The notes beneath the pieces were generated by a model. It was not told where the DNA came from. It did no database searches and worked only from the letters and a program-made list of their open reading frames with translations. A stretch of 64,000 bases of DNA, taken from NCBI GenBank assembly GCA_000182565.2, contig KQ257457.1. The stretch is one strand, 5' to 3'. This DNA comes from Spizellomyces punctatus DAOM BR117 (lineage: Eukaryota). Positions 54,802 through 64,000 of the stretch are shown one piece after another (within the stretch, counting starts at the first letter, position 1; each line of letters starts with the position of its first letter). The position numbers and the translations under genes are program-made.

Positions 54802-55023
54802 TGTACGTGCCTTCGTTATCGTATATGTACGGGTCGAAGCGGTACATGTTGGGCTGTGAAAACGATTTCCTGTTTTTTTTTGTTTTGTTTTTTTTTTTTT
54901 TCTGCCTTGTAAATGCTGCTTGGACCAATAGAGCGCTTAGTCACGATTTTGTCAGCGCTTAGTCACAGTCGGGGTGACCCAAAGTTACCAGTGAACTCTC
55001 CATCGCCATGCTCGTCCTTGGGA

Positions 55024-55542
55024 ATGGCGGAACCCACCCCTCAGTTACAACATCTACCTCGCTTGCCCGGAGAGGTCATCGACAATATCCTTCTCTATGT
55101 CCAGAACCCATTGACTCGCTTTCGTTTCGCTGTCACCCTCAGGAGGATCCTTGTGCGCGACATCACCATCCCAGAACTGCCGCAATGCACGTGGCATGAA
55201 GCTGCCAGACTCGCCCGCACTGACTTGCTCCGCTGGTGGGATGCCCGTTGGCGGAAAGTAGGTGGGGTTCCCTCGCCTTCCTCCCTCTCCCGGCTCCAAG
55301 ACGCCGGCGTTGAAAGGGGTCATGTGGACGTCCTCCAGGTTTGGGCTTCTAGCTTGCCCAGATTCCATCCGAGGAAGAACCCGTACTATACTGCTTCCTT
55401 CAATGGCCAGGTCCAGGTCTTGCAGTGGCTCAAGGACATTGGATATCCTGTTGATGAGCTTCCCAGATTCCCCTACATGGATGATGCTTTTCGTGGTAAG
55501 CCCGCCCTCACTCTTCAGTGGTGGAAAGACAGCGGTTTGTAA
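55024..55542 (+). pseudogene. F-box-like + Trp-rich ankyrin-repeat gene interrupted by the LTR element
   Basis: LPRLPGEVIDNILLYV, then repeats WHEAARLARTDLLRWW / AGVERGHVDVLQVW / TASFNGQVQVLQWL / TLQWWKDSGL. The stop codon is supplied by the first bases of the LTR. Confidence 0.75.
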
Positions 55543-56137
55543 CGACGAGGACGTCTTCGAGAGATCGCGAGTAAGCCCAAATCGGACGCGGGAAGCACGA
55601 ATCGCGTGACCAACTCCACCGATTGGGTTACCGCGACCGAAAAAACCGGTTCGGAGAATGGCAATTGGCGCATTAGATTTCAGCGTGCCTCGTACAACCT
55701 GTGGAGGCCCGAGCCAGTGCGGAAAAGGAAGAGATCGGTACCGCCACCAATAAATCAGTTGCGGTGCAGCGACACCCATTAGTTTAGTTTAGTTTAACAG
55801 TTTATCCAAGAATCTTGTATAAAAAGGATGTATTCAATAAAATAAGTCGGGGGCAGAAGCCGTAGCGACAAAAAATCCCCATAACTCGCTTCTCAACTCC
55901 AATCTTAGGTTAACAGGAACCTAACAGAGCGCTTCAACGGCCTGATCACCCGTACCGAAGCCTCTAAATCCTGCTCGGTTCACAACTAACCGACTCTCCT
56001 TGCCTCTCGCCCCCAAGTCGCTACCGACGCCCAAAGAAAGGATTCGGAGACTATGATTCCTAGTACGGCCACCCACATAACCTGCTAGGAGACCCAAGTC
56101 GTCTTTACCGTAGTCTACCAACAAAAAATCCGTTACA
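55538..56137 (+). repeat. 5' LTR (600 bp)
   Basis: Inverted termini TGTAACG...CGTTACA; TATAAAA at 55818, AATAAA at 55836; first 172 nt identical to 63829-64000. Confidence 0.97.
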
Positions 56138-56152
56138 TGGTGGAGAAGCGCG
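56138..56152 (+). promoter_or_regulatory. Primer-binding site (tRNA-Ala-like)
   Basis: TGGTGGAGAAGCGCG directly after the LTR, complementary to a ...CUUCUCCACCA tRNA 3' end typical of tRNA-Ala. Confidence 0.75.
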
Positions 56153-56292
56153 ACGAACCGCCTTCCCCTCTCAAATTCAGCTGAAAACCTTATTCGGTCG
56201 TACCGAAACTCTTGCGCAAACCGAGATCCGCTCAGGTAGCTACTCGGAAACCTTTTCTCTCGTTTCGGAGACAGAACTTCACGAAACCGAGA

Positions 56293-59200
56293 ATGATGCC
56301 GGTCGAACGCTCACCAACGCGAGGCCGCTCACCTGTGATCCAGACTCGTAGTCAGGGTCCTGCGGAGGACGTCGAAGTCCCTCCCGCAACACGCCCAAGG
56401 CGTTCAGGGACCACTTCCGTCGAACCGGAAGCCCCTAACTTGGCCACGATGGCCTCTGAAGTGGCAGCGTTAAAAGAAGACATTGCCCGCTCGACTGCTG
56501 CAACGCAGTTGGCAACTCAAAACCTTACGGAACAGCTTCATAGGCTTTCCGAACGTCAGACAGCGGCGGATGAGCGCCTCGCACGAGCCTTAGAAGCCCT
56601 AGCGCATCGCCCGCTGCCTGAACAACCTCCCATAGCACGAGCTACAAGAGAACGGTCCGCAACCCCGTGGGAAACGGCGGACACACCAAGGGAGCGTACC
56701 GAACCAAGTTTTTCAGGTGCGGTGCCTCCAATCCAAGTGCCAGCGGCCCCGTGGGCCAGCGACACCAAGATCGATTCCTTGAAAGCAAAGGACGTACCCG
56801 AGTTTACGGGCAGAAGAAACCAAGACATTGAAGAATGGCTTAACAAAGTCCAACTTCTTCAAAACATTAGCGCAACGTCGGATGCCAGGATGGTACAGCT
56901 CCTACCAGCCATGATAGCCGAGAAAACCCCTGCTGACGCTTGGTTTTACACTCTGGAAGCCCAGGAAACTCGCTCATGGACCTGGAAAAGGTGGAAAGAG
57001 GAACTGCTTCGAGAGTTCCGAGATCCCCTAACCGAGTCCAAGTGCAAAACCGAATATGTGCGCTGCCATGCGAACCCCAAAGAATTTCGCAGCTTTCTCG
57101 CGTTCATCGACCACAAAACTCATCTCCGGCGCCTCGCTTATGGCGACCGGGCAAACATAGAATGTCCCGCTGACCAGCATTTCGACCTAATAGTCGAACA
57201 ATTGCCCAGCGACATCCAAATCATGGTCAAATCCTGTAACGTCACGAACCTGACCAAATTAAAAGACTTCCTGCGCCTTTATTTCGGCTCTGATGACACC
57301 AGAAAACGAGACCCTTGCTACAGCGGTGCTGCAGAAGCTCAGAAGAAGTCACAAAAGACCGGAACCGACAAAGGCCCTAAGCAGACGGCTCCGCATAAAA
57401 CCGGAAACCCCGAAAAGGGTCGCGATGGTCCTCAGAAGATGGTTCCGGACCCCAACAAGGAACCACCGGCACCCTGCAAATTCTGTCAGAAAAAGCATTG
57501 GAATGTTTTCTGCTGGCAGAACCCGAACCGAAAAGATCCTGAAGATGGAAAGAAAGGACCATATGGAGCACCCATGCCCTCAGGTTGGAAACCCAAACAG
57601 GAATCGAAGAAGGCGTACATAGTGGAGCTGGACTCGACGTCCGCTACCACCGAGACTCTTTTTTCGGCTTCGGAACTGGAAAGAACGGAAGCCGCTAATC
57701 AAGGATTCCACACCATCGGGTTCTTTCATTCACCCAAGCACTCGGAATCAACAATTTTGATGACCGCACCTCTTTCCAAGGTCACGGTGACCAAGGAAGA
57801 GGACCCCCGCACGCCCACGCAGGGCTGGGACCGAGTCTGGGACAACATAGCCATCATCTGGGGCACCCCGCAAGTGGCTCTGATGATGGGCAACAACCCC
57901 CGCGCGCTCAGCTTCTTCGCCAAAGAACCGAAGCGAGGCGCCGGGCACCTCGGGAACGACCCCTACGCAGTCGCGTGGAGTTCCCACCACCTCTACATCG
58001 CTGCCGCAGCCGAAGCTGACAAGGATCGAATCCTGCGAAAGGTCCGAGAAGACGGTACCCCTCGTTTGATTCTCCTTGCCTGGATAAAGCTCGACGAGCG
58101 CGAGAAATTCTTGATGTGGAGCTCTGAAGATCCTGTTATCTTTGATGCGTACGCCAACCTGCAACTGGTGGCATTTCTCCTGACAGGCAATATCGTTCGC
58201 TCAGACTATTATTATCGTCGCGGAAACCCCAAATTTCGGCACGTTAAAGACCATCCACGTCTCCAAAGACACGAAGAGAGCGAACGGACGCGTATAGTCA
58301 TGCTGGCTATCGAACAAGTTGCTCGCCAGAATAAAACAACAAAACCACAAAACGACAAAACTAGAGAACACTTTGAGAGTGTGATCAAGGCTACGGAAGC
58401 AACAATTAACGACATCGCGCCCCATTTCGAGATCGCGGTGCCTTCTATCAACGCCTTCTACTCAGTAGATTTAGGCGATGTACTCAAAAGCCAGACTAAG
58501 ACCCAAATGCAGCCTTGCTGGACGCTAGCCGTCATCGCGCAGCTCTGGGCACCTGTGGTACTAGACACAGGGGCCTGCGAGTCTCTGATTTCCGACACGT
58601 ACCAAGGCCTTCTGTTCTCCGAAACCGATTTGCAGGATGCGGAAACGATGGCTTTCAACGGCATTGGTGGACGTATCTCATCTACCAAGACAGTATGCCT
58701 CGAAACTTCCCTCAGAGGCCGCGGCGGAGAATACCTGACTTTCCGCGCCTACTTTCGGGTCATCGCGTATGGGAAACCTCTCATCATCCTAGCCAACGAC
58801 GTTTTGGGACATTTGAAACTCCAAACCTTGGTTCAGGAACCCCCGTTACCCAGTTTCGCGGTGACGCTCAAGAATCCAGACATCCTTATCCCCTGCTCCA
58901 TAACGGATGAGCTGGACACCGATCACATGCGCGGCACGCCATACAAGACCAAGCAGGGTGAATTCATGAAGGATGTGTCAATGCCACGGCTGACCAAAGC
59001 CAAAGCTCAGAAGTCTAGATTAACCATGTTAATCACGGGACAGACGCGCGTGGCAGCCCAAACTTTTCTCATCGAAAACCCTCTTGAGGCCACCGCTGCT
59101 AGCTCAACGGTCCCGTTAGGCCTCAAACTGTCCACCGCGACCCATAATTCGGTTGCGGACCCCGAAGAGAACATTTCCAAAGAAGAATGGCAGACACTTC

Positions 59201-62200
59201 GGAACAAATGGAACCTCGACTCTACGGAGAGGGCTCCAGGGGCCTTCGAAGCCCAATTAAAAGACGCGGAACGTTTCCACGTCGATCTCAAGCGACCCAA
59301 ACCCGTGGTCTGGGCCCTAATCAACATTCTACGACACTTCCATCAAGCCTTCAGCTATGAGGGTCATCTCATAGGGAACTACACCAAGATTCCTTATGCG
59401 CCTCGATTTATCTCGGCTCCGCCACCCCTTTCGAGGCCACGGTCGTACTCTCCGTTGGAGCGGACAGCCCTCGAGACGGAGCGAGACACCATGATGGGGC
59501 TTCAGAGGTGGAAACGAACCACCGAAGTAACCTTTGCCAGCGATCCTGTTATCATTCGCTATGCAGACAAACCCCCGCGCGTAGCCTTCGACTATCGCCG
59601 AGCCAACGACTGCATGGCCTGGGATCCATATCCCTTTCCCATCATGCTCGACATCCTGAACTGGATCGTCGCAGTCCCATTCCGATACATATCGGGAGGT
59701 GACGCAAACAAAGGATTCTACCAAATCGCCATCACCGATGCGTCGGTACGCAAATGGCTCGCGCTCAGACTCCATGACGGCATCTACGAACCACTCTTTA
59801 TGCCCTTCGGACCCAAGACTGCCCCCTCGCACTTCTGTCGGGTGATGGACGACACCTTGGGTCCCTCCAAATGGCGAAATATCAACAACTTCGTCGACGA
59901 TATCCACACACGAGCGGAGACAGCCGCGGAAGCCCTAGACGCCATTGCGGACTGGCTCGACCGCTTTTCCAGAGCCAAACTCACCCTAAGACTCGACAAG
60001 TGTCAATGGCTCTTTCACCAGCTCACGGCCCTCGGTTTCGTTGCCTCCTCTCAGGGTCTCGCTACCGATCCAGACAAGGTCGCAACCATAGTCGATTGGC
60101 CACAACCCAAATTCATAGGTGACCTATGGTCATTCGTGGGTCTCCTAGGGTTCTACGCCCAATTCATTTCTCGCTACGCGGAACTCGTCCGACCCCTGCA
60201 AGACGCTATCCAAGAGGGCGTTCGCGAATACCGAGACCTTAAAAAGGGTCGCGCTGACCCGAAGAAAGGCGCTGAAAAGCTCAATTCACCATCCATGCTC
60301 GACACGGCGGTGGCCCCTACAATCACAGCCACCGGAGCCCGATTTGAGGTTTCGCAACATCCGAAATCTAGCTCCTCAGACCTACCGGCGGTCAATCTAC
60401 GCCAATCATCGCTGGCGGACTTACCCATTGACCCCTTTTGTGTCGGACGCCTTGCTCGCAAGCGCCCCGACCAAGGTCTGCGCAGATTTATCGCGAAGCG
60501 TGAAGTTTCATGGACCGATTCCCGAAACTCTGCCTTTGCAGCCGCCAAGCAGGCTCTGACAACAGCTCCAGTGCTCGCGGCACCCAGAAAAGGGTTCCCC
60601 TACACCCTTCACAGTGACGCTTCCTACACAGCATTTAATGTCACGCTCGAACAGTTACAGCCGGATGCTTCTAAACGCCCGCTGTGCTACCATTCCCGAG
60701 GCACCACCACCTCGGAAAAGAAGGCCCCCCCCGTCGAACTCGAGGCCGGATGCCTCATTTGGGGCCTCGGAAAACTCCGCCCATACCTCGAAGGCCTGCC
60801 TTTCACGGTCATTACTGATCACCGAGCTCTTTTGTGGCTCACTAAATACAAAGGCGAGAACCGTAAGCTTCTCCGCTGGGCCCTCGATCTTAGTTACTGG
60901 TCCGAATGGATGACAATCGTTCACAAACCAGGACATTTTCACATTGTCGCTGATACACTTTCACGGCTACTAGGAGCGGAAACCCTACTCTGCTCCACCG
61001 CGACCCAAATATGGGTGTCGAAACGCGGAAGACGACGGCTGCGCACCACACCAGCTGCTCTCACACCTTCCTCGACACTGGCAGATGCCGTCTTTCGTCT
61101 GGCCTTACAGCCTGCACTCATTGCCGCCATCCGCGCTGGCCTCACCGGCCAGCTCCACCCCATAGCCCAACAGGCCCGCACGCTCCTATGGGAGACCAGC
61201 CCCGACACGTACACTACCGCCGACACGCGCTTTCTTCAGGACTGGCAACGTGCAGATAACCTGCTGTGGCACCGTTTTTCAGTCTCCGAAGACCTTTGGC
61301 GCCTTTACGTGCCCCCTGCTTGCACCCCTGAGGTGCGCAAGCTTTTTCACGAGGGGGGAGGACACTTCGGATTCGAAAGAACCTACGCTAGAGCTGCAGC
61401 GCAAGTCTGGTGGCCGAAAATGGCACAAGATTTCAGAAAACACTGCGCAGGATGTGAAACCTGTCAACGCTCAAAAAGGGTACCGCAACTGATTCCGGGG
61501 TTGCTGAAACCCATACCACCAGCTCCGGGACGCTGGACAGTCATCACGACTGACTTCGTAACCAAGCTCCCACTTACTTCCAGAGGGTACGACGCCTTTT
61601 GGTTAATAGCATGTAAATGCTCAAAGAGGATCCACGTATGGCCCCTCAAGAGCACTGCGACAGCTATTCAGGTCGCGGAACTCTTTATAGAGCGCTACGT
61701 CCCATTGCACGGCATCCCGGAGACCATTATCTCGGACCGCAACTCCAAATTTACGAGTCGATTTTGGCAGGAGGTCTGCAAAAACCTAAAGATTAATCAA
61801 GAGCTCACCACAGCCTACCACCCTCAAGGTGATGGACAATCAGAAAGAGACAACGCAACGGTCTTGCAGGTCCTTACCACAATGGTCAACACCCGATTAG
61901 ATGACTGGGACACCTTTCTTCCGGTTGCGGAATTCATTATCAACGATACGGTACACGAGGCGACAAAAATGACGCGATTCAGAATGGACCTAGGCTATGA
62001 GCCCCACAATCCACTGGCGGACATCGTCGAAAGGCCGTCAGAAACCAGAAATGCAGATGCGGAGGAGCTCTGTAAACACCTCGGCGACCTAAACATCCTT
62101 ATCCGAGATCTGATGATCGAAGCCCAGGATTCGCAGAAAAGATATTACGATTTATCGCGACGACATTTGGAGTTCCGGAGAGGAGATAAGGTGCTTCTGA

Positions 62201-63771
62201 GCACGAAAAACCTAGCAGGGTATGAGTCCAAGATCGCTCCGAAATGGCTGGGACCAGTCACGGTGACCGACTGTAACCCTCTCCGCGACAACTACGAGTT
62301 AAAACTGCCAGACAAGATGAGACGACTTCATCCATGGTTTCACATATCGAAATTACGTCCGTACCAGAAGCCTGTCGACGCCGAAACTGAGGAAAAGGTC
62401 GCGGAAGCACAAGCGGAGGATTCCGACGCTTCAGATGGCGAGTTTGAAGTGGAAGCGATAGTAGACCATCGAACCAGGCGCGGAAAACGTCAATTTCGAA
62501 TACGTTGGTCCGGATACCCACCCCATGAGGATACCTGGGAACCAGAGGAAGCCCTAACAGAGGCTTCCGAAGCCTTAGAAGAGTACTGGAGATCCAGAGC
62601 TCCCACTAGCGCGCTAGTAGAGGACTCTTTGGTAGTCAGCCTTGCAGGCGACGCCCCGGAAGATACGGCTTATGCTTCCGACCACCAATGCTTCGCGGTT
62701 TATCCGGACGATAGCTCACGTGATAATCACGCCCTCTCACCAGAAAGAAAACCAGTTTCGCGTGGCTTACCTCACCAGTCGAGAACGCCACACCAAGCCT
62801 CCCGATCACGCTTACGCGCGTCCGAGCTGTCAAAATCAGCCGGCGACGACCTTAAAAGGACGCCCCTGCACGCTCCCCCTCTTTTTTCTTCTTCAACCGC
62901 CCACGACCTACTTCCCTTACACACTCACTCTGCTTCGCAAACCCCTTCTATCGACACCGAAACTAAAACTTCCATTTCTAACACAATGAACACCGATCTC
63001 AGAGGACAAGCAGGAGTGAGCGTACCCTCCACGTACATGTCCGGCTACCCTTGGGAGGAAGACTCGGGCGACTTCGAGGCCGAGGGCGTGCTGGATCGCC
63101 TTGGGGTTGCGATCGCTACCTGGGTTCACTCCTGGGTTCATCAGCTTCGGACCAACCCCAACGCGCCGCTGCAGACTCCAGGGCATGAGTTTTGGCTGGG
63201 AGTCGACGCTCCGAAACCTTACGCGGTGGGCCAGCCCCTCACAAACCACATCGCGGACCCCTACAGCAAGGCCACCGATGGTGGTGAAGCAGCGGTCGGA
63301 ATAGTTGCTGACGCGAAAAAACCCGGAAAAAGAGGGCGCCCAGCTCCGTGCGCCGCTTGGCTCGACCGCGGGGTTCCCCAACACGAGGCGGGAAGCCGAA
63401 AAACGGCTCCGTTCACCGATTGGCCGAACGACGACGCCCACGAGTTTGCGTCCGCCGTCATTGAAGCAGCTAGGACGGTGCTCCTAAGGACGGCGAACGC
63501 AGCGGAAGCCTCTGCAAGGCTCACCAGACCCCGACATCACGAGCACGCGGAGTACCATTTCCGCGCGACAAACCTGAAAAGGGCCGCGGAGACCTTTACG
63601 GCCCTCTACGTAACCAGAACTGGCCCCGACGTGACCCCGGGTACCATCGTTCGTACCGCAACAGATCAAATCTGGTTTTGTTGCAACGTCAGTGGCCGTG
63701 CCAGTATCATCTGGGTCGTGAACCAAGATGCAGATGAAGCGGACCCCACAGATCCGGTACCGACCTGGTAA
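56293..63771 (+). CDS. Gag-Pol polyprotein with extra domains
   Basis: Capsid (VPEFTG..IEEWL), CKFCQKKHWNVFC knuckle (57475-57513), protease VLDTGA (~58558), RT FVDD (59890), RNase H (HSDAS, ELEA, TDH, ADTLSR), integrase HHCC, DDE (TTDF, SDR, SERDN) and GPY/F-like KWLGP, chromodomain FEVEAIVDHR..IRWSGY..DTWEPE (~62440-62590). Confidence 0.97.
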   Translation: MMPVERSPTRGRSPVIQTRSQGPAEDVEVPPATRPRRSGTTSVEPEAPNLATMASEVAALKEDIARSTAATQLATQNLTEQLHRLSERQTAADERLARALEALAHRPLPEQPPIARATRERSATPWETADTPRERTEPSFSGAVPPIQVPAAPWASDTKIDSLKAKDVPEFTGRRNQDIEEWLNKVQLLQNISATSDARMVQLLPAMIAEKTPADAWFYTLEAQETRSWTWKRWKEELLREFRDPLTESKCKTEYVRCHANPKEFRSFLAFIDHKTHLRRLAYGDRANIECPADQHFDLIVEQLPSDIQIMVKSCNVTNLTKLKDFLRLYFGSDDTRKRDPCYSGAAEAQKKSQKTGTDKGPKQTAPHKTGNPEKGRDGPQKMVPDPNKEPPAPCKFCQKKHWNVFCWQNPNRKDPEDGKKGPYGAPMPSGWKPKQESKKAYIVELDSTSATTETLFSASELERTEAANQGFHTIGFFHSPKHSESTILMTAPLSKVTVTKEEDPRTPTQGWDRVWDNIAIIWGTPQVALMMGNNPRALSFFAKEPKRGAGHLGNDPYAVAWSSHHLYIAAAAEADKDRILRKVREDGTPRLILLAWIKLDEREKFLMWSSEDPVIFDAYANLQLVAFLLTGNIVRSDYYYRRGNPKFRHVKDHPRLQRHEESERTRIVMLAIEQVARQNKTTKPQNDKTREHFESVIKATEATINDIAPHFEIAVPSINAFYSVDLGDVLKSQTKTQMQPCWTLAVIAQLWAPVVLDTGACESLISDTYQGLLFSETDLQDAETMAFNGIGGRISSTKTVCLETSLRGRGGEYLTFRAYFRVIAYGKPLIILANDVLGHLKLQTLVQEPPLPSFAVTLKNPDILIPCSITDELDTDHMRGTPYKTKQGEFMKDVSMPRLTKAKAQKSRLTMLITGQTRVAAQTFLIENPLEATAASSTVPLGLKLSTATHNSVADPEENISKEEWQTLRNKWNLDSTERAPGAFEAQLKDAERFHVDLKRPKPVVWALINILRHFHQAFSYEGHLIGNYTKIPYAPRFISAPPPLSRPRSYSPLERTALETERDTMMGLQRWKRTTEVTFASDPVIIRYADKPPRVAFDYRRANDCMAWDPYPFPIMLDILNWIVAVPFRYISGGDANKGFYQIAITDASVRKWLALRLHDGIYEPLFMPFGPKTAPSHFCRVMDDTLGPSKWRNINNFVDDIHTRAETAAEALDAIADWLDRFSRAKLTLRLDKCQWLFHQLTALGFVASSQGLATDPDKVATIVDWPQPKFIGDLWSFVGLLGFYAQFISRYAELVRPLQDAIQEGVREYRDLKKGRADPKKGAEKLNSPSMLDTAVAPTITATGARFEVSQHPKSSSSDLPAVNLRQSSLADLPIDPFCVGRLARKRPDQGLRRFIAKREVSWTDSRNSAFAAAKQALTTAPVLAAPRKGFPYTLHSDASYTAFNVTLEQLQPDASKRPLCYHSRGTTTSEKKAPPVELEAGCLIWGLGKLRPYLEGLPFTVITDHRALLWLTKYKGENRKLLRWALDLSYWSEWMTIVHKPGHFHIVADTLSRLLGAETLLCSTATQIWVSKRGRRRLRTTPAALTPSSTLADAVFRLALQPALIAAIRAGLTGQLHPIAQQARTLLWETSPDTYTTADTRFLQDWQRADNLLWHRFSVSEDLWRLYVPPACTPEVRKLFHEGGGHFGFERTYARAAAQVWWPKMAQDFRKHCAGCETCQRSKRVPQLIPGLLKPIPPAPGRWTVITTDFVTKLPLTSRGYDAFWLIACKCSKRIHVWPLKSTATAIQVAELFIERYVPLHGIPETIISDRNSKFTSRFWQEVCKNLKINQELTTAYHPQGDGQSERDNATVLQVLTTMVNTRLDDWDTFLPVAEFIINDTVHEATKMTRFRMDLGYEPHNPLADIVERPSETRNADAEELCKHLGDLNILIRDLMIEAQDSQKRYYDLSRRHLEFRRGDKVLLSTKNLAGYESKIAPKWLGPVTVTDCNPLRDNYELKLPDKMRRLHPWFHISKLRPYQKPVDAETEEKVAEAQAEDSDASDGEFEVEAIVDHRTRRGKRQFRIRWSGYPPHEDTWEPEEALTEASEALEEYWRSRAPTSALVEDSLVVSLAGDAPEDTAYASDHQCFAVYPDDSSRDNHALSPERKPVSRGLPHQSRTPHQASRSRLRASELSKSAGDDLKRTPLHAPPLFSSSTAHDLLPLHTHSASQTPSIDTETKTSISNTMNTDLRGQAGVSVPSTYMSGYPWEEDSGDFEAEGVLDRLGVAIATWVHSWVHQLRTNPNAPLQTPGHEFWLGVDAPKPYAVGQPLTNHIADPYSKATDGGEAAVGIVADAKKPGKRGRPAPCAAWLDRGVPQHEAGSRKTAPFTDWPNDDAHEFASAVIEAARTVLLRTANAAEASARLTRPRHHEHAEYHFRATNLKRAAETFTALYVTRTGPDVTPGTIVRTATDQIWFCCNVSGRASIIWVVNQDADEADPTDPVPTW

Positions 63772-63818
63772 TTGACGTCCCAACACCCCCGCTCGGAGCG
63801 CCGGTGCGTTGGCTCTTC

Positions 63819-63828
63819 AAAGGGGGGA
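63819..63828 (+). promoter_or_regulatory. Polypurine tract
   Basis: AAAGGGGGGA immediately before the TG of the 3' LTR. Confidence 0.93.
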
Positions 63829-64000
63829 TGTAACGACGAGGACGTCTTCGAGAGATCGCGAGTAAGCCCAAATCGGACGCGGGAAGCACGAATCGCGTGA
63901 CCAACTCCACCGATTGGGTTACCGCGACCGAAAAAACCGGTTCGGAGAATGGCAATTGGCGCATTAGATTTCAGCGTGCCTCGTACAACCTGTGGAGGCC
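63829..64000 (+). repeat. 3' LTR (partial)
   Basis: Identical by eye to 55538-55709. Confidence 0.97.

What the first reader, a model, noticed from the sequence alone, without database searches (positions are those of the whole stretch)
62590..63771. Orphan 261-aa module after the chromodomain, in frame with Pol but with its own promoter-like leader
Seen: the ORF continues ~390 codons past the chromodomain, where chromovirus Pol normally ends. The first ~130 codons are low-complexity S/P/T/H and the DNA reads like a fungal promoter and 5'UTR: TCACGTGA (62716), CTTAAAAGG (62851), a C/T-rich tract (~62870-62980) and AACACAATG with the in-frame ATG at 62986. The 261 aa that follow look folded (Trp/aromatic-rich, AT-hook-like PGKRGRP), and I see no env-like TM segment. 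Inference: an accessory or captured ORF that may be made both as an integrase-chromo fusion and from a subgenomic transcript.
Basis: partly seen in the sequence, partly recalled or inferred. Interest (0 to 1): 0.72.

Follow-up and report, generated by a model that had tools for sequence, protein, structure and literature searches.

The report
Extra protein module on chytrid retrotransposon
An intact chromodomain LTR retrotransposon of a chytrid fungus carries, after the point where such elements normally end, a floppy linker and a well-folded 240-260 residue protein module of an unnamed family with no recognisable fold relatives, which elsewhere exists as a free-standing small protein.

Summary
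An intact Ty3/gypsy chromovirus (LTR from 55538, single gag-pol ORF 56212-63771) runs 389 codons past its chromodomain. In 61 other chromodomain proteins I retrieved, the median tail is 10 residues.

The extension has two parts:
- A 131-codon S/A/L/P/T-rich linker, predicted disordered (pLDDT 26-38).
- A 261-codon module that folds confidently (pLDDT 83, pTM 0.86).

The module is not an orphan. Eight real relatives exist, in Spizellomyces punctatus, S. 'palustris', Gaertneriomyces and four unnamed environmental records. Three are free-standing proteins of 274-284 aa whose Met lies within 8 residues of the window's ATG 62986. No Pfam, PDB-sequence, Foldseek or VIA-align match was found (best Z 4.0).

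The "own promoter" reading is not supported. Its motifs occur at chance frequency. The linker frame is open more than chance predicts (P about 0.02) and stays open in three other copies. The one RNA run laid is too thin inside the element to show or exclude an internal start.

Sister copies share a chromodomain and linker 89-91% identical to the window's, but their module is only 57-59% identical. The module therefore behaves like an exchangeable cassette.

Best reading: a lineage-specific accessory module made mainly as the C-terminal end of Gag-Pol. Its function is inferred, not shown.

The parts
55538..56137 (+). 5' LTR, 600 bp (TGTAAC...GTTACA). It holds a TATA-like TATAAAAAG at 55818-55826, AATAAA at 55836-55841, and a poly(A) addition site at 55875-55877.
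   Evidence: A direct repeat 55538-55709 = 63829-64000 is 100% identical over 172 nt. The ends were read. Poly(A) loose ends at 55875/55877 appear in RNA run X10.
56138..56155 (+). Primer-binding-site-like sequence (TGGTGGAG...) directly after the LTR.
   Evidence: Read from the sequence. Complementarity to a tRNA was not tested.
56212..63771 (+). Single gag-pol ORF of 2519 codons (first ATG at 56295). Order: Cys-His knuckle, DTG protease motif, RT, RNase H, integrase, SH3, chromodomain, linker, module.
   Evidence: Pfam hits: RVT_1 at aa 1160-1276, RT_RNaseH at 1434-1561, Integrase_H2C2 at 1700-1756, rve at 1777-1871, SH3_Tf2-1 at 1991-2051, Chromo at 2078-2127.
62443..62592 (+). Chromodomain, the normal end of a chromovirus Pol.
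   Evidence: Pfam PF00385, E 6.4e-16. In 61 other chromodomain proteins the median tail after this point is 10 aa.
62593..62985 (+). Linker of 131 codons, low-complexity and predicted disordered, in the Pol frame.
   Evidence: There are 0 stops in the Pol frame against 3 and 7 in the other two frames. The chance of an open frame is 0.013-0.022. pLDDT is 26-38. Copies P0041, P0053 and P0097 are 117/131, 119/131 and 126/131 identical. The first 14 or so residues align to relative P0056, whose ORF ends 21 residues later.
62986..63771 (+). Accessory module: 261 codons plus a TAA stop. The ATG sits in CACAATG context, and the folded part starts about residue 20 at the YPW motif. Family motifs are GIVADAxKxGKRxR, PCAAWLDxGxPQ, FTxWP, FTALYVTR, DQIWF and a terminal aromatic residue.
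   Evidence: Relatives. AlphaFold2: pLDDT 83, pTM 0.86. No family or fold match.
63819..63828 (+). Polypurine tract AAAGGGGGGA, directly before the 3' LTR.
   Evidence: Read from the sequence.
63829..64000 (+). Start of the 3' LTR, cut off by the window end.

Best explanation
The stretch 62593-63771 is the 3' end of the gag-pol gene of an intact, probably young chromovirus of a Spizellomyces-like chytrid. It encodes a lineage-specific accessory protein module.

Shown:
- After the chromodomain comes a 131-residue disordered tether, then a compact alpha/beta domain of about 240 residues. This domain belongs to a small, unnamed protein family.
- The family is so far seen only in Spizellomycetales and in a few unnamed environmental records.
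- In the Spizellomyces punctatus copies the module is in frame with Pol.

Inferred:
- It is therefore made mainly as the C-terminal end of the Gag-Pol polyprotein, in the same amount as integrase. It either stays tethered to integrase-chromodomain or is cut off in the linker by the element's protease.
- The ATG at 62986 is most likely the start of a formerly separate downstream ORF, which became joined to Pol by loss of the intervening stop. Three distant relatives are free-standing proteins that start at nearly the same place, and the nearest Pol relatives end 18-33 residues after the chromodomain.
- As to function, the conserved exposed basic loop (K-x-G-K-R-x-R) on an otherwise acidic domain (pI 5.7), together with its position on integrase, suggests a role in a nuclear step. 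Candidates are import of the integration complex or tethering it to a host factor or to nucleic acid. This last step is a guess, at about 0.25-0.3.
For: Element integrity:
- The 172 nt of both LTRs that can be compared are identical, and there is one uninterrupted 2519-codon ORF.

The tail is exceptional:
- It is 389 aa long, against a median of 10 aa in 61 other chromodomain proteins. Only 1 of the 61 has 100 aa or more, and none has 200 or more.
- A profile of the module hit none of the 140 other proteins fetched, nearly all of them chromovirus or related Ty3/gypsy Pol proteins or fragments.

The module is real and conserved:
- There are 8 real relatives at E 3e-95 to 2.4e-7, named from S. 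punctatus, S. sp. 'palustris' and Gaertneriomyces sp..
- Identity falls as low as 24%, yet length, motifs and the terminal aromatic residue are kept.
- AlphaFold2 from only 11 sequences gives pLDDT 83 and pTM 0.86. The same fold returns in the 468-aa model.

The fusion is maintained:
- The linker frame is open with chance P 0.013-0.022.
- It is also open in P0097, P0041 and P0053.
- The linker is disordered, with pLDDT below 50 over tail residues 77-220.

An ancestral separate ORF is plausible:
- P0044, P0045 and P0047 (278, 284 and 274 aa) start with Met 27-28 residues before the YPW motif. The window's Met lies 20 residues before it.
- Pol relatives P0056 and P0055 end 33 and 18 residues after the chromodomain.

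Cassette behaviour:
- P0041 and P0053 are 117/131 and 119/131 identical in the linker, but only 155/261 and 150/261 in the module.
- Copy P0097 is 126/131 and 253/261 identical.
Against: - No DNA of any relative could be fetched. I could not see whether the free-standing relatives lie in retrotransposons, whether a stop separates them from pol, or which state (fused or separate) is the older.
- Their contig lengths (7835, 7956 and 8261 bp) fit an element of this size. However, no Pol hit or 38 has one of those contig lengths.
- The copies compared are from one genome and may be decaying neutrally. Conservation of the linker between them therefore says little about selection.
- No evidence for the protein, for its processing or for its function exists here.
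- The basic loop has low model confidence (pLDDT 61-75).
- One gene model in S. punctatus (P0052, 261 aa) starts at the equivalent ATG. This would fit separate expression as well.
Confidence: 0.6

Rival explanations
1. One reading: besides the fusion, the module is made as a free 261-aa protein from a subgenomic transcript. That transcript would start at an internal promoter in the linker DNA (about 62850-62950) and be translated from ATG 62986.
For: - The ATG is in a good context, CACAATG with A at -3.
- It is one of only 3 in-frame ATGs after 62300.
- It is positionally conserved with the starts of the free-standing relatives.
- S. punctatus gene model P0052 is exactly such a 261-aa protein.
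- A pyrimidine-rich tract precedes the ATG.
Against: - The named motifs occur at chance frequency: TCACGTGA 2 times and CACGTG 9 times in 64 kb.
- The same DNA is an open, in-frame, conserved coding linker.
- In RNA run X10 no cluster of molecule starts and no joints were reported anywhere in the element. The four bins over the module have depth 0.17, 0.25, 0 and 1.51. That depth is too low to exclude a start.
Confidence: 0.2
2. The module is expressed as retroviral env is, from a spliced subgenomic RNA. The acceptor would be the CAG at 63000-63002.
For: - The longest AG-free stretch of the element lies here: 144 nt, 62857-63001, with the next longest 97 nt.
- It holds a pyrimidine tract and a single branch-point-like CTAAC at 62978, 23 nt before the AG.
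- An in-frame ATG at 63037 lies just before the folded part.
Against: - No GTRNGT donor-like site exists between 55539 and 57000.
- No joints were seen in any of the four runs laid, though depth was low.
- The AG-free stretch follows from the low G content of a Ser/Pro/Thr/His-coding linker.
- An acceptor after ATG 62986 would discard the conserved start.
Confidence: 0.05
3. The module is a host gene recently captured by this element family, and the free-standing relatives are ordinary cellular genes.
For: - Free-standing forms of 274-284 aa exist.
- None of the 140 other fetched proteins (nearly all chromovirus or related Pol proteins or fragments) carries the module.
- Capture of cellular domains by retrotransposons has precedents: passages of bioRxiv 10.64898/2026.05.21.726589 and of bioRxiv 10.1101/2021.11.30.470311.
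Against: - Eight S. punctatus proteins carry the module. P0041, P0053 and P0097 carry the element's chromodomain and linker. P0052 and the fragments P0042, P0051 and P0054 are near-identical to those copies. P0115 is a chromodomain-linker fragment of the same element family without the module. No separate cellular paralogue turned up.
- The unnamed relatives sit on contigs of 7.8-8.3 kb, about one element long.
- The Gaertneriomyces protein is a partial model on an 11 kb contig.
Confidence: 0.1
4. The tail is non-functional read-through into former 3' untranslated sequence. It would be an accident of one copy.
For: No known family, fold or function was found.
Against: - The chance of a 261-codon open frame is 0.0008 given the module's composition.
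- Relatives down to 24% identity keep length and motifs.
- The fold prediction is confident.
- The tail is present in at least 8 gene models of one genome.
Confidence: 0.03

Closest known systems
Chromoviruses: Ty3/gypsy elements with a C-terminal integrase chromodomain, such as MAGGY, Tf1 and Tcn1-like elements (names recalled; MAGGY is mentioned in passages of bioRxiv 10.1101/2021.11.30.470311)
   Same: LTRs, PBS, PPT, the order RT-RNase H-integrase-SH3-chromodomain, and a single gag-pol ORF.
   Different: In those elements Pol ends a few residues after the chromodomain (median 10 aa in 61 retrieved proteins). Here it continues for 389 residues with a linker and a further folded domain.
Retrotransposons with accessory domains appended to pol: a cytosine methyltransferase at the 3' end of pol in Cymbomonas chromovirus-like 'EpiLTR' elements (passages), and an m6A demethylase domain in orchid Ty3/gypsy elements (PMC9289625, search listing only)
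   Same: An extra, non-canonical protein domain fixed in an LTR retrotransposon lineage, placed after the chromodomain or integrase.
   Different: Those domains are recognisable enzymes of known families. This module matches no Pfam model, no PDB sequence and no solved or viral predicted fold.
Extra ORFs after pol in Ty3/gypsy elements: env of errantiviruses (PMC13524379, listing only) and the additional ORFs of the plant Retand lineage (PMC11963269, listing only)
   Same: A gene-sized coding unit between pol and the 3' LTR. Relatives of the module occur as separate ORFs.
   Different: The module has no signal peptide or TM-like segment. Here it is fused in frame to Pol rather than being a separate, spliced ORF.

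Membership tests
Chromovirus (Ty3/gypsy LTR retrotransposon with chromodomain), for the element as a whole | Long terminal repeats flanking the coding region, with a PBS after the 5' LTR and a PPT before the 3' LTR | tested here: met
   A 172 nt exact repeat runs to the window end. The LTR ends TG...CA, the TGG-starting PBS-like site and the AAAGGGGGGA tract were read. Only the first 172 nt of the 3' LTR are in the window.
Chromovirus (Ty3/gypsy LTR retrotransposon with chromodomain), for the element as a whole | Pol order RT, RNase H, integrase, with a chromodomain at the integrase C-terminus | tested here: met
   Pfam hits in this order, all above the curated cut-offs.
Chromovirus (Ty3/gypsy LTR retrotransposon with chromodomain), for the element as a whole | Aspartic protease upstream of RT | tested here: inconclusive
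   No Pfam protease hit at E up to 1. Only a VVLDTGA motif is seen in the translation.
AT-hook DNA-binding motif | An R-G-R-P core in a basic context, kept across the family | tested here: not met
   RGRP is present in 2 of 14 family sequences, the window and P0097. The others have RLRD, RARP, RARI, RRRD, RTRE or QRPA at this place.
Retroviral or errantiviral Env-like protein | A signal peptide and at least one transmembrane segment | tested here: not met
   The highest 19-residue Kyte-Doolittle mean is 0.89 in the module and 0.82 in the linker. The N-terminus is polar.
Any curated protein family (Pfam-A, NCBIfam) or solved structure | A significant profile or fold match | tested here: inconclusive
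   - Pfam: 0 families for 8 of 8 members at E up to 1, and 0 for the window's tail.
- NCBIfam: best E 0.047, in 1 of 11 members.
- PDB sequences: 0 hits for the profile.
- Foldseek PDB: best E 0.24.
- Foldseek BFVD: best E 0.16.
- VIA-align against 48,161 chains: best Z 4.0, none at 5 or more.
- Sub-domains were not folded and searched on their own.
The unnamed module family defined here (Spizellomycetales element-associated module) | Length of about 240-280 aa, with an N-terminal YPW, GIVADAxKxGKRxR, PCAAWLDxGxPQ, FTxWP, FTALYVTR, DQIWF and a C-terminal aromatic residue | tested here: met
   Alignments A1 and A3. Invariant columns in A1 are K112, R118, G129, Q132, W146, T205 and A206. The profile gives E 1.5e-110 for the window protein.

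The most novel reading that the evidence does not exclude
The module is an exchangeable accessory gene with a previously unseen fold. Spizellomycetales chromoviruses would swap it between lineages: two versions only 57-61% identical sit on Pol ends about 90% identical in one genome. They would express it in two ways, as the tethered end of integrase and as a free protein from its conserved ATG. Such cassette-like turnover is what one expects of a factor that meets a changing host partner, for instance a silencing or targeting factor. The module would then be a fungal retrotransposon counterpart of retroviral accessory genes.
Probability: 0.15. Interest if true: 0.75.

Novelty: new variant of a known kind. 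Interest (0 to 1): 0.5.

Why it matters
Fixed accessory domains in LTR retrotransposons are rare. The known ones (chromodomains, methyltransferases, demethylases, env) each revealed how an element deals with host chromatin or with spread.

This one is a confidently folded domain with no family name and no structural neighbour. It sits exactly where chromoviruses carry their targeting domain, and it is in a chytrid that I recall, from no call, to be genetically transformable in the laboratory. It gives a concrete candidate for a new integrase-linked function.

The sharp drop in identity at its boundary also gives a natural experiment on modular exchange between elements.

It also corrects the annotation. 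Several 'hypothetical' and 'chromo domain-containing' S. punctatus gene models are pieces of this element's Pol tail.

Tried and rejected
- **Whole genome.** None is held for this window.
- **DNA of relatives.** Two scans of metagenome contigs, three of viral contigs and one of genome contigs all found nothing. Gene order around the free-standing relatives therefore remains unseen.
- **Fused forms.** A word-based search for fused forms among proteins of 1385-4409 aa found none.
- **Linking contigs by length.** None of the contig lengths listed equals 7835, 7956 or 8261.
- **Spurious hits.** Two phmmer hits were rejected. P0048 is a 5332-aa acidic repeat protein with 17 stretches, each with i-E 0.072. 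P0050 is a 1022-aa protein of repeated units with phmmer E 4.5e-4 and profile E 4.9; I took it for a fish immunoglobulin-like protein from its sequence, and no call names it.
- **RNA.** No RNA holder was listed by the index. Run X10 (raw reads, about 6 in 100 of the run read) put nearly all of its 4721 laid reads on the LTR. Depth there is 100-363, against 0-6.4 in the internal bins. Most reads carry a variant (56013 T in 232 of 337), so they come from other copies. There were no joints and no start clusters. This can neither show nor exclude an internal start. X11 laid nothing. X1 and X4 are contigs of unknown kind.
- **ESM Atlas.** The best scores were 0.77 and 0.88, below the 0.9 level at which a hit is more than a lead.
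- **Bacterial-type promoter and terminator scan.** It found 0 sites and is not relevant to a eukaryote.
- **Module tree.** The tree is unresolved: 0 of 5 inner branches are starred. No order of events is claimed from it.
- **Prior description in print.** Three searches listed no paper on this module or on Spizellomyces chromoviruses. Of the 8 papers holding 'Spizellomyces' and 'LTR retrotransposon', I read passages of one (PMC3627910, unrelated). The others I saw only as titles and abstract starts.
- **Supplements.** None were opened. TE tables in supplements could list this element.
- **Complex prediction.** Not run, because no binding claim is made.
Full report
**What is there.**

The finding lies at the 3' end of a complete-looking LTR retrotransposon.
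- A 172-nt exact direct repeat (55538-55709 = 63829-64000) marks the two LTRs. The 3' LTR is cut by the window end.
- The 5' LTR reads TGTAAC...GTTACA (55538-56137) and is followed by a TGG-starting primer-binding-like site.
- The tract AAAGGGGGGA lies directly before the 3' LTR.
- Between the LTRs runs one ORF, 56212-63771, of 2519 codons.
- Pfam places RT, RNase H, the integrase zinc and core domains, the Tf2-type SH3 and a chromodomain (aa 2078-2127, E 6.4e-16) in the order typical of chromoviruses. It finds nothing on the last 390 residues.
- The window holds no second copy of the element or the module.

**Is the tail unusual?**

Yes.
- 66 of them have a BLASTP match to the window's chromodomain.
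- Leaving out the window protein and four S. punctatus copies, the 61 others have a median of 10 residues after the chromodomain. One has 100 or more; it is named from a cockroach and carries Pfam PF01393, so I take it for a host chromobox protein. None has 200 or more.
- The window protein and three S. punctatus gene models have 389.
- The two nearest Pol relatives, P0056 (62% identical) and P0055 (52%), end 33 and 18 residues after the chromodomain.
- P0056 still aligns with the first 14 or so residues of the window's linker.

**The two parts of the tail.**

The linker:
- The first 131 codons (62593-62985) are rich in S, A, L, P, T, D, R and H.
- In a model of chromodomain, linker and module (468 aa, 14 sequences), tail residues 77-220 have pLDDT below 50, with block means of 26-38. 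This marks a disordered linker.

The module:
- The remaining 261 codons, modelled from an alignment of only 11 sequences, give mean pLDDT 83 and pTM 0.86.
- The model has three long helices (35-56, 149-179, 185-203) and four strands (122-127, 205-210, 228-235, 238-245).
- The first 12 residues are below pLDDT 50, and the fold starts near the YPW motif.
- The module has 9 Trp, a pI of 5.7 and no TM-like segment.

**Not an orphan.**

A phmmer search of the 261 aa against 1.84 billion cluster representatives gave 10 proteins at E up to 0.001.
- Two are spurious: a 5332-aa acidic repeat protein, and a 1022-aa protein of repeated units that I took for fish immunoglobulin-like.
- Six S. punctatus proteins carry the module: P0041 with cluster mates P0051-P0054, and P0042.
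- One is from Spizellomyces sp. 'palustris' (P0043) and one from Gaertneriomyces sp. JEL0708 (P0049).
- Four are unnamed records (P0044-P0047).
- A further S. punctatus model, P0097 (484 aa), turned up.
- The window is therefore most likely from S. punctatus or a very close relative. This is an inference from 94-99% identical named proteins.

Family features:
- Members share length, the motifs GIVADAxKxGKRxR, PCAAWLDxGxPQ, FTxWP, FTALYVTR and DQIWF, and an aromatic last residue in most members.
- P0044, P0045 and P0047 are free-standing proteins of 278, 284 and 274 aa. Their Met lies 27-28 residues before YPW, against 20 residues for the window's ATG 62986.

**No known family or fold.**

| Search | Result |
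|---|---|
| Pfam, 8 members | 0 families at E up to 1 |
| NCBIfam, 11 members | nothing below E 0.047 |
| PDB sequences, single protein | one hit at E 1.2 |
| PDB sequences, profile | 0 hits |
| Foldseek against PDB | best E 0.24 |
| Foldseek against BFVD | best E 0.16 |
| VIA-align against 48,161 chains | best Z 4.0, none at 5 or more |
| ESM Atlas | best scores 0.77 and 0.88 |

- The VIA-align tool's own note says models without a clear match typically reach a best Z of 7-8, so Z 4.0 is low even for that.
- The module profile hit none of the 140 other proteins fetched.
- I did not fold sub-domains separately, so 'new fold' is a lead, not a result.

**Promoter or coding linker?**

- TCACGTGA occurs twice and CACGTG nine times in the window.
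- CTTAAAAGG is not a TATA box. The element's own TATAAAAAG sits in the LTR.

The same DNA is open in the Pol frame.
- It has 0 stops there, against 3 and 7 in the other two frames.
- The chance of this is 0.022 (first-order Markov) or 0.013 (shuffle).
- The frame stays open in P0097, P0041 and P0053.
- The pyrimidine tract encodes PLHAPPLFSSSTAHDLLPLHTHSASQTPS.
- GC by codon position in the linker (0.58, 0.56, 0.50) differs from the module (0.64, 0.54, 0.66) and from RT (0.60, 0.47, 0.60). A Ser/Pro/Thr/His-rich linker would give this, and so would a formerly non-coding spacer.

**RNA.**

- The run index listed no RNA holder.
- I laid one RNA run of the same species label (X10, raw reads, about 6% of the run read), one RNA contig set (X11) and two sets of unknown kind (X1, X4) on 55538-63828.
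- X10 put 4721 reads on the stretch, almost all on the LTR. Depth there is 100-363, with poly(A) tails added at 55875/55877.
- The internal bins have depth 0-6.4. The four bins over 62740-63828 have 0.17, 0.25, 0 and 1.51.
- There were no joints and no start or end clusters.
- Most LTR reads carry 56013 T rather than C (232 of 337), so they come from other copies.
- This neither supports nor excludes an internal start. It does show that this copy's interior is at most weakly represented in that sample.

**A splice acceptor?**

- The longest AG-free stretch of the element (144 nt, 62857-63001) lies here, with one CTAAC at 62978 and the CAG at 63000-63002.
- No GTRNGT donor-like site lies between 55539 and 57000, and no junction reads were seen.
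- I keep this as a low-probability rival.

**Mosaic copies.**

Compared with the window:

| Copy | Chromodomain part | Linker | Module |
|---|---|---|---|
| P0097 | 75/76 | 126/131 | 253/261 |
| P0041 | 69/76 | 117/131 | 155/261 |
| P0053 | not comparable | 119/131 | 150/261 |

- P0053 has a different N-terminus in its gene model, so its chromodomain part is not comparable.
- In both P0041 and P0053, the last 40 linker residues are 32/40 identical, and the first 40 module residues are 22/40 and 21/40.
- In alignment A3 the two module versions are 61% identical to each other. Each is 54% identical to the S. 'palustris' protein.
- So two old module lineages sit on nearly the same Pol end, with the change of identity at the end of the linker.
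- I infer that recombination between element lineages, with a junction near the module start, is the simplest cause. Very fast divergence confined to the module is the alternative. Either way, the module behaves as a unit.
- Most differences between the window and P0097 are of the kind G:C-to-A:T transitions give (R>H, A>T, P>L, S>L, D>N, R>C, A>V, T>M, V>I), with one S>G. This was read by eye.

**Verdict.**

- The module is a real, conserved, folded, element-encoded protein domain of a new small family (confidence about 0.85-0.9).
- Its main route of synthesis is probably the Gag-Pol polyprotein, through a disordered tether (about 0.6).
- The conserved ATG is best read as the start of a once-separate ORF. 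Whether it is still used is open (about 0.2).
- The function is unknown. A nuclear or integration-linked role is suggested only by the module's position on integrase and by a conserved basic loop.
- Accessory domains appended to retrotransposon Pol are known. This is therefore a new variant of a known kind, carrying a domain that is itself new.

Noticed in passing
window 57650-58550 (aa about 480-780 of the polyprotein) and about 60080-60500 (aa about 1290-1430): The polyprotein has 2519 aa, against 1400-1700 for most relatives. Besides the C-terminal module, two more long stretches have no Pfam hit. One lies between the Cys-His knuckle and the DTG protease motif (window 57700-58560 scanned alone: 0 families). 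The other lies between RT and RNase H. They may be further lineage-specific insertions.
   Followed up: partly
window 54913-55542: A + strand ORF of 209 aa (weak ankyrin-repeat match, Ank_4, E 0.013, below the cut-off) runs straight into the 5' LTR. Its stop codon, TAA at 55540-55542, is made of LTR bases. The element seems to have inserted into a host coding sequence.
   Followed up: partly
window 55818-55877 (5' LTR): A TATA-like TATAAAAAG (55818-55826) and AATAAA (55836-55841) lie in the LTR. RNA reads carry poly(A) tails added after 55875/55877. The R region would then be only about 25 nt long, if transcription starts about 30 nt after the TATA. Reads of the two directions pile up on either side of 55815, which I could not explain from the library description.
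   Followed up: no
window 62642-62989: A second frame is open for 115 codons across most of the linker. It ends with a TGA that overlaps the module's ATG (ATGA at 62986-62989). This could be chance in C-rich DNA. It could also be a trace of an older arrangement in which an upstream ORF ended at the module's start.
   Followed up: no
S. punctatus proteins P0041, P0042, P0051-P0054, P0097, P0115 (public gene models): At least eight 'uncharacterized' or 'chromo domain-containing' gene models of S. punctatus are pieces of this element family's Pol tail: SH3-chromodomain-linker-module, or fragments of it.
   Followed up: yes
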